Below, piece after piece: positions 7,621 through 33,213 of a DNA stretch of 64,000 bases (its first letter is position 1; the number at the start of each line of letters is the position of its first letter). The position numbers and the translations under genes were made by a program. This DNA comes from Acutalibacteraceae bacterium (GTDB lineage Bacteria; Bacillota; Clostridia; Oscillospirales; Acutalibacteraceae). Under the pieces are notes generated by a model that saw only the letters and a list, made by a program, of their open reading frames with translations, did no database searches and was not told where the DNA came from. The stretch is from assembly GCA_045604805.1 (NCBI GenBank), contig JAZUOT010000030.1:27291-91290 (forward strand). Direction: 5' to 3'.

Positions 7621-8376
7621 TCAAACAAAGATGCTTTTTGCAAGATTGTTTAACTTATGAAGCTGCCAAACATCATTCGCTCCCATGGCAACATACGGGT
7701 TTTCAGCAATAAGGGCATCAACTTTGTGACCAGAGTTGAGTAAGATCTTTATCGTGTCTGGTAAGTAATATTCTTTTTGAGCGTTACAATTATTTATTTT
7801 TTCAAGAGAAAAAAGTAGATCATTCTTATCAAAAACATACACACCAGAACTTATTTCTTTTATCTTTCTCTGTTCTTCGCTTACATCTTTTTCTTCAACT
7901 ATAGCCTGCAGCAAAGCACTATTATTATCTCGAATTATTCTGCCATAGCCACTTGGATCTTCTAGTACAGCCGATACAACAGTTGCAGAATTATTTTTAC
8001 TGAAGTGATATTTTAGGGTATTTTCTAGTGTTTTGCTATCAATAAAAGGGGCATCACCATTTAAAACAACTACTGAATTGCAAGCATTCTCTTTTAGGAT
8101 TTTTTCAGCACACATAACAGCATGACCAGTTCCTAGGCGTTTACTCTGAAAGACTGTGCACACATCCGGGAATTTTTCCTTCAAATAAGATTCAACTATG
8201 TGATTTTTAAAGCCTGTAACTACACAAACCTTTCCGCAAGAAATATCTAAACAAGATTCGATCACATAACTTAGCATTGGTTTACCTAAAACCTCTGACA
8301 TGACTTTAGGCTTATCTGAGTTCATGCGTTTTCCTTCGCCAGCAGCCAGGATGACACAGTAAGTACTAGGTTTCAT
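7621..8376 (-). CDS. glmU: GlmU-like UDP-GlcNAc pyrophosphorylase domain only (no left-handed beta-helix acetyltransferase domain)
   Basis: N-terminal VILAAGEGKRMNSDKPKV signature and glmU-prs synteny. The ORF stops at 251 aa, in the linker helix. Only 61 nt separate it from prs. Confidence 0.8.
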   Translation of the reverse strand: MKPSTYCVILAAGEGKRMNSDKPKVMSEVLGKPMLSYVIESCLDISCGKVCVVTGFKNHIVESYLKEKFPDVCTVFQSKRLGTGHAVMCAEKILKENACNSVVVLNGDAPFIDSKTLENTLKYHFSKNNSATVVSAVLEDPSGYGRIIRDNNSALLQAIVEEKDVSEEQRKIKEISSGVYVFDKNDLLFSLEKINNCNAQKEYYLPDTIKILLNSGHKVDALIAENPYVAMGANDVWQLHKLNNLAKSIFV

Positions 8377-8408
8377 CTACTCCCTCCCAAAATCTATAAC
8401 ACATTGTA

Positions 8409-8436
8409 ATTATCTCATAATATGTATTTTTTTCAA
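8409..8436 (-). promoter_or_regulatory. candidate sigma-A promoter of the glmU-prs-pth-mfd operon
   Basis: Minus strand reads TTGAAA, then 16 nt, then (TGa)GATAAT. It lies about 35 nt upstream of the glmU ATG at 8376. Confidence 0.4.
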
Positions 8437-8456
8437 GTAGGTTACCAGAATAACGC

Positions 8457-8474
8457 CACGCAAAACGCATGAAA
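8457..8474. promoter_or_regulatory. 18-nt element CACGCAAAACGCATGAAA, copy A (identical copy at 36784..36801)
   Basis: Perfect 18/18 match to the second copy. Both lie 19-20 nt beyond a TTGAAA -35 hexamer on the minus strand. The minus strand reads TGCGT-TT-TGCGT, a direct repeat. Confidence 0.5.
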
Positions 8475-8636
8475 GCTCATCCCTACTAGAAACTGTGTGA
8501 TAGACACTTTTTTAGAAGCTTAGAACTTATTCAATTTAAAATCTGCTTTTTCTTTTTTTCTCTAAACACTTGCAAAAGGTTACTCCTAATTCTTGTATAT
8601 GGGTGTAAAAATATAGTACAATTTACACGTGAAAGA

Positions 8637-8666
8637 GTTGATACTGTAAATGTTGATACTATAAAT
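8637..8666 (+). promoter_or_regulatory. tandem 15-nt duplication forming a near-consensus promoter for the giant gene
   Basis: GTTGATACTGTAAAT followed by GTTGATACTATAAAT. This reads as TTGATA (8638-8643), a 16-nt spacer, then TATAAA (8660-8665), about 25 nt upstream of the ATG at 8690. Confidence 0.4.
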
Positions 8667-8689
8667 AACGATAGAGGGTGCTGATTAAA

Positions 8690-8914
8690 ATGACACAAAG
8701 GGAAAAATATTATAAACATAAAGTAATGAGAATATTAATTGATAGCAGAGACAAAAATGAAGCAAAAAACAATCTGGAGATGGCTCAGATTCATCTATCA
8801 GATGGAGAGATTGAATATCTGAAAAATATATACAATAATTGCCGTGGTGGATCTTTTATAAGCTTAGGAGATAACACTTTAAGCATGCAAGAACTTGATG
8901 AAGTTGCAGGAGGA
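8690..8914 (+). other. 75-aa leader region ending in LSMQELDEVAGG (double-glycine processing motif)
   Basis: Fits the LSxxELxxIxGG consensus of C39-peptidase-processed leaders. It aligns with the leader of the 33428..36658 gene: GEIEYLKNIYNN versus EEIDTLKNFFQN, and LSMQELDEVAGG versus LTFSQLDDVAGG. Confidence 0.6.
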
Positions 8915-33010: not shown

Positions 33011-33213
33011 ATTACTACATTTCTCCTCCTAACAGCAAATTCCATACTGGCACATTATACTATAGAGAATTATTTTCGTCAATTTGTTTTTTGTGACGGG
33101 AGTGCCTTTTTACAAGTGTTTAGAAAAAAGAGAAAAGACTATAAAACTCATCTATCTCCATAACTTCTAATAATTCGTTCGATAATTATTTTTTCCTTTA
33201 TTTGCTTTTATAG

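What the first reader, a model, noticed from the sequence alone, without database searches (positions are those of the whole stretch)
8431..8474. Identical 18-mer plus shared -35 block upstream of both accessory loci
CACGCAAAACGCATGAAA occurs twice in the window, at 8457-8474 and 36784-36801. Each copy lies 19-20 nt from the block TTTCAAGTA, whose complement supplies a TTGAAA -35 hexamer for a minus-strand promoter. One promoter drives the glmU operon and the other drives the PARG-domain gene. The 16-17 nt between the two blocks are loosely similar as well. On the minus strand the element reads TGCGT-TT-TGCGT, a direct repeat centred at about -60, which is the position of a class I activator site. 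Copy A lies in the divergent region shared with the giant gene, about 215 nt before its ATG. So both GG-leader genes have the element in their control regions. Two explanations are possible: a regulator coordinates them, or the PARG locus captured a duplicated promoter.
Basis: seen in the sequence. Interest (0 to 1): 0.6.

Follow-up and report, generated by a model that had tools for sequence, protein, structure and literature searches.

The report
Insertion-sequence end remnants beside two promoters
The repeated 18-base motif is not a regulator's docking site. It is the leftover tip of a decayed jumping gene (an ISAs1-family insertion sequence), which is ordinary, except that this group of elements lands about 19 bases upstream of promoters far more often than chance allows.

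Summary
CACGCAAAACGCATGAAA occurs exactly twice in the window (8457-8474 and 36784-36801). Each copy lies 19-20 nt from a minus-strand TTGAAA -35 hexamer.

The 18-mer is not an operator. It is the terminal inverted repeat of an ISAs1-family insertion sequence (IS). Full-length relatives carry the same repeat at both ends of a ~1.27-kb element encoding a PF13808+PF01609 transposase. These relatives were found in metagenome contigs and on an annotated Bacillus mycoides plasmid; another Clostridia genome has the same repeat beside a transposase C-terminus.

This genome holds about 30 decayed ends:
- Copy A is a right-end remnant: the repeat, a decayed terminator hairpin and the last transposase codons.
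- Copy B is a left-end remnant.

Orthologous glmU promoters in relatives are conserved but lack the element, so copy A is an insertion. Only about 12 of roughly 70 GG-leader genes have an end nearby, and the flanking genes are functionally unrelated. That argues against both a regulon and a duplicated promoter.

The geometry is unexpected. In this genome and several others, ends of this IS clade sit 18-19 bp upstream of outward sigma-A-type -35 hexamers. The counts are 8/27 and 23/42 ends, against 1.5% for control positions. This suggests promoter-proximal target choice.

The parts
8457..8474 (+). Copy A: terminal inverted repeat (right end, IRR) of a decayed ISAs1-family IS. The outer tip is at 8457 and the IS interior runs rightwards.
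   Evidence: Exact 18-mer. The same sequence is the IRR next to the transposase stop codon in contig L055, and it sits next to the transposase gene's 3' end in L065 and in genome G098. It is 15/18 identical to the perfect 20-nt TIR of an annotated ISAs1-family IS in B. mycoides.
8475..8513 (+). Decayed hairpin plus T-run: the former terminator of the transposase gene, just inside the IRR.
   Evidence: Part of a ~86-nt repeat with 22-29 copies in the genome. L065 and G098 have the same layout of transposase stop, hairpin, T-rich run and TIR. Copy A's own fold is weak, with z = -1.2 on the + strand and +0.6 on the - strand.
8514..8540 (-). Decayed last codons of the transposase gene, read on the minus strand.
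   Evidence: In better-kept copies the minus strand reads ..SIKKKKFAITLEPIKFLEKVLSF*, with synonymous differences between copies. This aligns with the C-termini of the L065, L055, G098 and G041 transposases. Copy A reads only ..F*IE*VLSF*.
8437..8456 (.). 20-bp host spacer between the IS tip and the glmU -35 hexamer.
   Evidence: Not conserved between IS copies. Its promoter-proximal part is homologous to the sequence upstream of the glmU promoter in relative L071.
8409..8436 (-). Ancestral promoter of the glmU(N-domain)-prs-pth-mfd operon: -35 TTGAAA at 8436-8431 and TG-extended -10 GATAAT at 8414-8409.
   Evidence: Scan hit. CTTG(A/C)AAAAA..TGAGATAATT is conserved upstream of the glmU orthologues in L071, L072 and L073, which lack the 18-mer. 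Operon genes were identified with Pfam.
36784..36801 (+). Copy B: terminal inverted repeat (left end, IRL) of a decayed copy of the same IS. The outer tip is at 36784.
   Evidence: Exact 18-mer. The interior that follows is of IRL type.
36802..36845 (+). IRL-proximal interior remnant: the former transposase promoter and 5' region.
   Evidence: Aligns with G000 C15:11471-11530 (78% over 55 nt). There the same sequence is followed by a decayed ISAs1 transposase N-terminus (tblastn E = 5e-14). No transposase remnant follows in the window.
36765..36783 (.). 19-bp host spacer between the IS tip and the -35 hexamer.
36735..36764 (-). Promoter-like site of the 1090-aa GG-leader gene: -35 TTGAAA at 36764-36759 and TG-extended -10 TATTAT at 36740-36735.
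   Evidence: Scan hit. No orthologue comparison was possible.

Best explanation
The 18-mer is the terminal inverted repeat (TIR) of an ISAs1-family insertion sequence, called IS-Y here. IS-Y once spread in this genome and has since decayed to about 30 solo ends, one 195-nt derivative that keeps both ends, and one fragment with a transposase N-terminus.

Copy A is a right-end remnant. It contains the TIR, the old transposase terminator hairpin and the last transposase codons. Copy B is a left-end remnant. It contains the TIR and the old transposase promoter region.

Shown:
- The motif is identical to the TIR of full-length elements.
- The interiors of both copies are homologous to the matching IS ends.
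- The element is absent from the orthologous glmU promoters of relatives, so copy A marks an insertion 20 bp upstream of a promoter that already existed.

Inferred:
- Both copies sit at about -72 to -55 of outward promoters because this IS clade prefers to insert 18-19 bp upstream of a -35 hexamer, with a 10-bp target duplication. They are not there because a host regulator binds them.
- Today the remnants are most likely inert. At most they replace the DNA upstream of -55 and add a weak barrier to read-through transcription.
For: 1. Full-length elements have the motif as their TIR.
- L055 has a 1274-nt unit with CACGCAAAACGCATGAAA next to the transposase stop codon. CACGACAAACGCATGAAA lies, inverted, next to the transposase promoter.
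- L065 has the exact 18-mer 66 nt beyond the stop codon of a 367-aa transposase.
- Both transposases match PF13808 and PF01609.
- Plasmid relatives are annotated as ISAs1 family transposases.
- The B. mycoides copy is 1266 bp long. It has a perfect 20-nt TIR, CAGGACAAACGCATGAAAAA, and 10-bp target duplications.

2. The same genome holds a sister ISAs1 element, IS-X, with TIR CACGGCAAAAGCATTTAC. Its copies lie at contig ends, and one pair of flanks shares a 10-bp duplication.

3. Copy A is one member of a repeat of about 86 nt, with 22-29 copies. The inner part of the repeat encodes, on the opposite strand, the transposase C-terminus ..KKKKFAITLEPIKFLEKVLSF*, with synonymous variation between copies.

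4. Copy B aligns with the left end at C15:11471, which is followed by a transposase N-terminal remnant.

5. The element occurs in no other genome among 40 relatives of the same family or order. It does occur in a distant genome, G041, whose Prs protein is 57% identical against 65-69% for relatives. It also occurs in G098. This patchy pattern fits horizontal spread.

6. The glmU promoter is conserved in L071, L072 and L073 without the element.
Against: - No intact IS-Y copy was found in this genome, so the identification rests on relatives and on remnants.
- Copy A's interior is badly decayed. Its hairpin is not significant and its C-terminal codons are broken.
- Right-end remnants greatly outnumber left-end remnants (about 22 or more against about 5). 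Random decay does not obviously predict that.
- The sharp 18-20 bp spacing from -35 hexamers could reflect a function rather than target choice.
Confidence: 0.9

Rival explanations
1. The 18-mer is the binding site of a class I-type activator, or another host regulator, that coordinates the genes downstream.
For: The motif has a fixed position and orientation, spanning about -72 to -55, at 8 of 27 sites in this genome and at all 4 sites in G041. The polA-PFOR divergent region has one copy facing each promoter. The motif contains a TGCGT-TT-TGCGT direct repeat and an imperfect palindrome.
Against: - The motif is the TIR of a transposase-encoding element.
- It is absent from orthologous glmU promoters.
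- The downstream genes share no theme.
- Only about 12 of roughly 70 GG-leader genes have one nearby, and about 8 of those belong to a single duplicated upstream block.
- The sister IS-X has a different TIR sequence but shows the same spacing to -35 hexamers. The spacing therefore follows the IS, not the 18-mer sequence.
- The two polA-PFOR copies are the two ends of a single 195-nt IS derivative.
Confidence: 0.04
2. One locus captured a duplicated promoter from the other.
For: Beyond the 18-mer, both copies share TACTTGAAA at nearly the same distance. BLAST joins 45 nt at 82% identity.
Against: - The interiors differ: copy A has right-end type sequence and copy B has left-end type.
- The spacers and the -10 regions are unrelated.
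- ACTTGAAAAA at copy A is ancestral, because it is conserved in relatives that lack the IS.
- A -35 hexamer at this offset is a general property of this IS clade. Only the extra three bases, TAC, remain to be put down to chance.
Confidence: 0.02
3. The ~86-nt repeat is a family of small structured RNAs or mobile terminator modules that has nothing to do with an IS. This was my own interim hypothesis.
For: The repeat has two hairpins and a T-run. Several copies fold better than copy A does. One copy has a compensatory variant of the small hairpin, CATAC..GTATG.
Against: - No Rfam match.
- RNAalifold finds no consensus structure.
- Wobble pairs favour neither strand consistently.
- The conserved tail is explained by coding constraint on the transposase C-terminus.
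- Full-length elements have the same layout.
Confidence: 0.03
4. A rival to the inferred sub-claim only. The 18-19 bp spacing arises because selection keeps only those insertions that leave promoters intact, not because the transposase chooses that target.
For: The genome is compact. An annotated relative on a B. mycoides plasmid, where selection is weaker, shows little promoter association: 2 of 17 ends. G144 and G242 show none.
Against: Selection against harmful insertions predicts a lower limit on the distance, not a peak one to two bases wide. The pooled histogram has 16 ends at offset 19, 7 at 18 and 1 at 20. The peak appears with two different TIR types and in several families.
Confidence: 0.25

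Closest known systems
IS1548 of Streptococcus agalactiae and S. pyogenes (ISAs1 family, 1316 bp)
   Same: It belongs to the same IS family. It is reported in intergenic regions just upstream of promoters. Published positions are 9 bp upstream of the putative lmb promoter (PMC2875397), in the scl1 promoter region (PMC5005324) and upstream of murB, where it blocks co-transcription and adds a promoter (PMC8744998). A 34-bp remnant made of the inverted repeat plus 14 bp is described (PMC5005324), which parallels the solo ends seen here.
   Different: The host is different, and I did not compare its sequence here. The window holds only decayed ends. I found no report in the held library of a base-precise distance from the -35 hexamer. 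The paper on IS1548 insertion targets (PubMed id 23305302) is not held.
Annotated ISAs1-family IS on Bacillus mycoides plasmid NZ_CP132067.1
   Same: It is 1266 bp long. Its perfect 20-nt TIR, CAGGACAAACGCATGAAAAA, is 15/18 identical to the window 18-mer. It has 10-bp target duplications. Its transposase is 43% identical to that of L065.
   Different: The copies are intact and numerous. They show little association with -35 hexamers, at 2 of 17 ends.
Solo IS ends, MITE-like deletion derivatives and other interspersed intergenic repeats (for example the bcr repeats of the Bacillus cereus group and Correia elements of Neisseria; from my own knowledge)
   Same: These are short, lineage-restricted, multi-copy intergenic repeats with hairpins, often beside promoters. 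One copy here, C37:70573-70767, keeps both TIRs in 195 nt.
   Different: Most copies here keep only one TIR, so they are remnants and cannot be mobilised as MITEs.
Class I activator sites such as CRP at -61.5 (from my own knowledge)
   Same: The position relative to the promoter is similar.
   Different: There is no evidence of a host regulator, and the sequence belongs to a transposon end.

Membership tests
ISAs1 family insertion sequence | Single DDE transposase with DDE_Tnp_1 (PF01609) and the ISAs1-type N-terminal domain (PF13808) | tested here: met
   The L065 and L055 transposases next to the 18-mer match both domains. Plasmid homologues are annotated as ISAs1 family transposases. G000 keeps only fragments, and the window copies have no transposase gene.
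ISAs1 family insertion sequence | Terminal inverted repeats of roughly 14-22 bp at both ends | tested here: met
   L055 has CACGCAAAACGCATGAAA and its inverted partner CACGACAAACGCATGAAA. B. mycoides has a perfect 20-nt pair. G000 C37 has a 195-nt derivative with both ends. The window copies are solo ends.
ISAs1 family insertion sequence | Length of about 1.2-1.5 kb | tested here: met
   The repeat period in L055 is 1274 nt, including a 9-nt spacer. The B. mycoides element is 1266 bp.
ISAs1 family insertion sequence | Target-site duplication of 8-10 bp | tested here: met
   10-bp duplications flank three B. mycoides copies. One IS-X insertion in G000 has a 10-bp duplication pairing the C56 and C18 flanks, AGAGTAAAAA. 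This cannot be tested for the solo ends in the window.
ISAs1 family insertion sequence | The window copies are homologous to the IS interior next to each TIR | tested here: met
   Copy A's repeat family encodes the transposase C-terminus. Copy B aligns with the left end at C15, which carries a transposase N-terminal remnant. Copy A itself is heavily decayed.
Transcription-factor operator or regulon | The site is conserved at orthologous promoters | tested here: not met
   The glmU promoters of L071, L072 and L073 keep the -35 and -10 elements but lack the motif.
Transcription-factor operator or regulon | Regulated genes share a function | tested here: not met
   The downstream genes are glmU, a GG-leader gene, PFOR, iscS, greA, hydE, clpC, rmlA, polA and a tRNA gene. 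Only about 12 of roughly 70 GG-leader genes have an end nearby.
Transcription-factor operator or regulon | Fixed position relative to the promoter | tested here: met
   8 of 27 sites are at offset 18-20, against 1.5% for control positions. IS-X, which has a different TIR, shows the same spacing.
MITE | Two TIRs, no transposase gene, flanking target duplication | tested here: not met
   A scan for TIR pairs finds only the C37 derivative. Copies A and B have no partner TIR within 2.5 kb.
Intrinsic terminator (the hairpin of copy A) | Stable GC-rich hairpin followed by a T-run | tested here: inconclusive
   The T-run is present at 8508-8513. The fold has z = -1.2 on the + strand. The consensus scan reports only the small hairpin inside the TIR, on the minus strand.

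The most novel reading that the evidence does not exclude
A clade of ISAs1-family insertion sequences in Clostridia chooses its target with base precision. The IS tip lands 18-19 bp upstream of a sigma-A -35 hexamer (TTGACA/T), so the 10-bp duplicated target covers about -54 to -45. This leaves the core promoter intact. It would be a 'safe-haven' strategy that also scatters transposon ends, with their terminators, directly upstream of many host promoters. The window's two copies would be fossils of that behaviour.
Probability: 0.55. Interest if true: 0.7.

Novelty: new member of a known kind. Interest (0 to 1): 0.4.

Why it matters
For the finding as stated, the result is a correction. An apparent shared operator of two accessory loci turns out to be transposon debris. 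It should not be used to infer co-regulation of the GG-leader genes.

It also explains why this assembly is fragmented. Multi-copy ISAs1 elements sit at the contig ends. In addition, an IS insertion site marks the boundary between the conserved glmU promoter and the lineage-specific giant gene.

The side result could matter more. If these elements do home to a fixed position upstream of -35 hexamers, three things would follow:
- They would be a rare bacterial case of promoter-directed, non-disruptive transposition.
- Their insertion sites would be a natural marker of real promoters in uncultured Firmicutes.
- They would be a route by which terminators and transposase-binding sites are inserted next to host promoters.

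Tried and rejected
- **Rfam.** The whole window at gathering threshold and 8300-8750 at E <= 10 gave nothing relevant.
- **Structured RNA reading.** RNAalifold gave no consensus structure. Hand-set pairs showed wobble evidence on both strands. The idea was dropped once the tail proved to be coding remnant.
- **Covariance model R1**. It found 22 copies in this genome and none in 40 relatives. That showed lineage restriction but not identity.
- **Exact 18-mer in 596 Gb of genomes.** The 18 hits are about the number I estimate for chance (roughly 17). Only the two hits in one MAG, G041, were informative.
- **Composite transposon carrying GG-leader genes.** The C54 and C26 genes have an end on one side only, and no partner TIR lies beyond the giant gene.
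- **Mini-ORF starting at the ATG inside the 18-mer.** Not conserved and has no ribosome-binding site (reasoning).
- **cre, Spo0A, CodY, CtsR and dif-like sites.** Comparison from memory gave no convincing match.
- **IS1548 target paper.** PubMed id 23305302 is not held.

Full report
**1. Observation**

The 18-mer CACGCAAAACGCATGAAA is present at 8457-8474 and 36784-36801 on the + strand. No other match exists in the window, even with three mismatches, and 0.03 matches are expected by chance. TTTCAAGTA lies 17 nt and 16 nt to the left of the two copies.

- 8436->8409: TTGAAA, 16 nt, GATAAT, preceded by TG.
- 36764->36735: TTGAAA, 18 nt, TATTAT, preceded by TG.

The genes to the left of copy A are a 251-aa GlmU-type nucleotidyltransferase, prs, pth and mfd. 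The gene to the left of copy B is a 1090-aa ORF with no Pfam match.

**2. The motif is the edge of a dispersed repeat**

The window is G000:C30:27291-91290, in a genome of 1.33 Mb with 35.6% G+C and 56 contigs. The genome has 6 exact copies of the 18-mer and 15 with at most two mismatches.

In most copies the sequence to the left of CACGC is unique, while the 60-120 nt to the right are conserved. nhmmer finds 29 copies of this unit and a covariance model finds 22. All lie between genes, and many lie near contig ends. Copy B shares only the 18-mer with this unit. What follows it is a different conserved stretch, AATAATAC..TGATAAAA.

**3. Interim readings that failed**

There is no Rfam match and no RNAalifold consensus structure. 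Pair counts favour neither strand.

The covariance model finds nothing in 40 genomes of the same family or order. The exact 18-mer occurs 18 times in 596 Gb of genomes, which is about the number I estimate for chance. However, one distant MAG, G041, has four copies with the same layout. Its Prs protein is 57% identical to this genome's, against 65-69% for relatives.

**4. Identification**

A metagenome scan found contigs in which the 18-mer bounds a transposase gene.
- In L055 the motif recurs with a 1274-nt period. CACGCAAAACGCATGAAA lies 43 nt beyond the stop codon of a 353-aa ORF. The inverted partner, CACGACAAACGCATGAAA, lies just outside that ORF's TTGACA/TATAAT promoter. Nine bases separate successive units.
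- In L065 the exact 18-mer lies 66 nt beyond the stop codon of a 367-aa ORF, after a hairpin and a T-rich run.
- Both proteins match PF13808 and PF01609.
- Their plasmid homologues are annotated as ISAs1 family transposases.
- One such element in Bacillus mycoides is 1266 bp long. It has a perfect 20-nt inverted repeat, CAGGACAAACGCATGAAAAA, which is 15/18 identical to the window motif. It has 10-bp target duplications.
- In genome G098 the end CACGCAAAACGCATGAAG follows a transposase C-terminus that finishes ..KRFYVCCNPMRFLKELLAL*.

**5. What the window copies are**

Read on the opposite strand, the conserved tail of the ~86-nt repeat encodes ..SIKKKKFAITLEPIKFLEKVLSF* followed by a stop codon. 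Copies differ from one another by synonymous changes. The peptide aligns with the C-termini of the L065, L055, G098 and G041 transposases.

The repeat is therefore the right end of the IS: last codons, terminator hairpin, then inverted repeat. Copy A is a decayed member. Its codons are broken and its hairpin is not significant.

Copy B aligns with G000 C15:11471, where the same interior is followed by a decayed transposase N-terminus (tblastn E = 5e-14). Copy B is therefore a left-end remnant.

The genome also contains:
- one 195-nt derivative that keeps both ends, between polA and the PFOR gene;
- a head-to-head pair of ends outside the window;
- a related ISAs1 element, IS-X, which is probably active. 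Its repeat is CACGGCAAAAGCATTTAC, and its copies sit at contig ends.

**6. It is an insertion, not an ancestral control element**

The closest GlmU homologues, at 73%, 60% and 61% identity, lie in the same glmU-prs-pth-mfd arrangement. Their upstream regions conserve CTTG(A/C)AAAAA..TGAGATAATT, which confirms the promoter. None has the 18-mer or the repeat. Similarity between G000 and L071 runs up to about the IS tip and then stops. On the other side of the remnant lies the giant gene, which those relatives lack at this position.

**7. No regulon**

A profile of the double-glycine leader finds about 70 leader-bearing ORFs in the genome. About 12 have an IS-Y end within 500 nt upstream, and about eight of those share one duplicated upstream block. 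Genes downstream of the other ends include greA, clpC, polA, PFOR, iscS, rmlA and hydE, plus a tRNA gene in G041.

**8. The unexpected part: a fixed distance to promoters**

Reading outward from the IS tip, a good TTGACA-17-TATAAT pair starts at offset 18-20 at 8 of 27 IS-Y ends in this genome. The rate at random intergenic positions is 1.5% (p about 4e-9).

IS-X has a different repeat sequence but shows the same pattern. The pattern also holds elsewhere:

| Set | Ends with a promoter-like pair at offset 18-20 |
|---|---|
| G041 | 4 of 4 |
| L065 | 1 of 1 |
| G098 | 6 of 8 |
| G135 | 5 of 6 |
| G336 | 2 of 6 |
| G144 | 1 of 6 |
| G000 IS-X | 4 of 8 |

Pooling these sets with three G242 ends (0 of 3), and leaving out IS-Y of this genome, gives 23 of 42 ends, with 16 at offset 19 and 7 at offset 18.

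The spacers themselves are unrelated, so these are host promoters, as the glmU comparison shows directly. The bias is not universal. By the test that scores only the -35 hexamer, G144 and G242 show none and the B. mycoides plasmid shows 2 of 17.

I read this as target choice by the transposition machinery, and I give selection as the rival.

**9. Literature**

IS1548, an ISAs1-family element of streptococci, is reported at these positions:
- 9 bp upstream of the putative lmb promoter (PMC2875397);
- in the scl1 promoter region, with a 34-bp inverted-repeat remnant in one strain (PMC5005324);
- upstream of murB, where it stops co-transcription and adds a promoter (PMC8744998).

An ISAs1-family element of the human gut microbiota inserts preferentially between genes (PMC10592638). 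I found no statement of a fixed distance to the -35 hexamer in the held library. The paper on IS1548 insertion targets is not held.

**10. Verdict**

The regulatory reading and the promoter-duplication reading are both rejected. The motif is the terminal inverted repeat of decayed ISAs1-family elements, which is an ordinary kind of object. The precise promoter-proximal placement of this IS clade deserves a follow-up of its own.

Noticed in passing
window 8529-8586 and 33099-33138; 12 more copies elsewhere in G000 (for example C5:31593-31678, C40:14170-14254, C54:23049-23127): A second, unrelated repeat of about 87 nt..ATTTAAAATCTGCTTTTTTCC..TCTCTAAACACTCGCAAAAGGGTACTCC. It has 14 copies. Twelve point the same way as the next gene and lie 60-125 nt before its start, just upstream of promoter-like sites. 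The genes include the giant gene, rnpA, gap, tig, pyk, lon and a tRNA. Its nature is unknown; it could be another IS end or a real upstream element.
   Followed up: partly
whole genome G000; in the window the leaders start at about 8690 and 36655: About 70 ORFs, many of 500-3700 aa, start with the ~70-residue leader that ends in a double glycine. That is a very large share of a 1.33-Mb genome. Several lie at contig ends.
   Followed up: partly
G000 contig ends C4, C18, C27, C34, C39, C52, C56 and internal C5:36195: A second ISAs1-family element, IS-X, with TIR CACGGCAAAAGCATTTAC. It has near-identical copies that break the assembly. One insertion has a 10-bp target duplication, AGAGTAAAAA, pairing the C56 and C18 flanks.
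   Followed up: partly
G000 C37:70573-70767: A 195-nt IS-Y derivative that keeps both inverted repeats lies between the divergent polA and PFOR genes. A promoter-like site follows each end, at offsets 9 and 19.
   Followed up: partly
I did not test the PARG assignment further.
   Followed up: no
window 7621-8376 (minus strand) and G000 C47:18650-19342: Most of the closest homologues of the 251-aa GlmU-type protein are also about 250 aa long, so the short form is common in this group. A separate 230-aa ORF at C47 also has an IS-Y right end just upstream. By eye it looks like a hexapeptide-repeat acyltransferase, which I did not check.
   Followed up: no
G000 C52:122-418: A fragment of an IS256-family (Mutator-type) transposase lies next to an IS-Y right-end remnant. 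I identified it by eye from conserved motifs.
   Followed up: no
L055 (JGI24704J35079_10011183) and L058 (Ga0123353_10414259): Right and left IS ends abut head-to-head with a 9-10 nt spacer. In L055 the whole IS repeats three times in tandem. This could be IS dimers, circle junctions or an assembly artefact.
   Followed up: no
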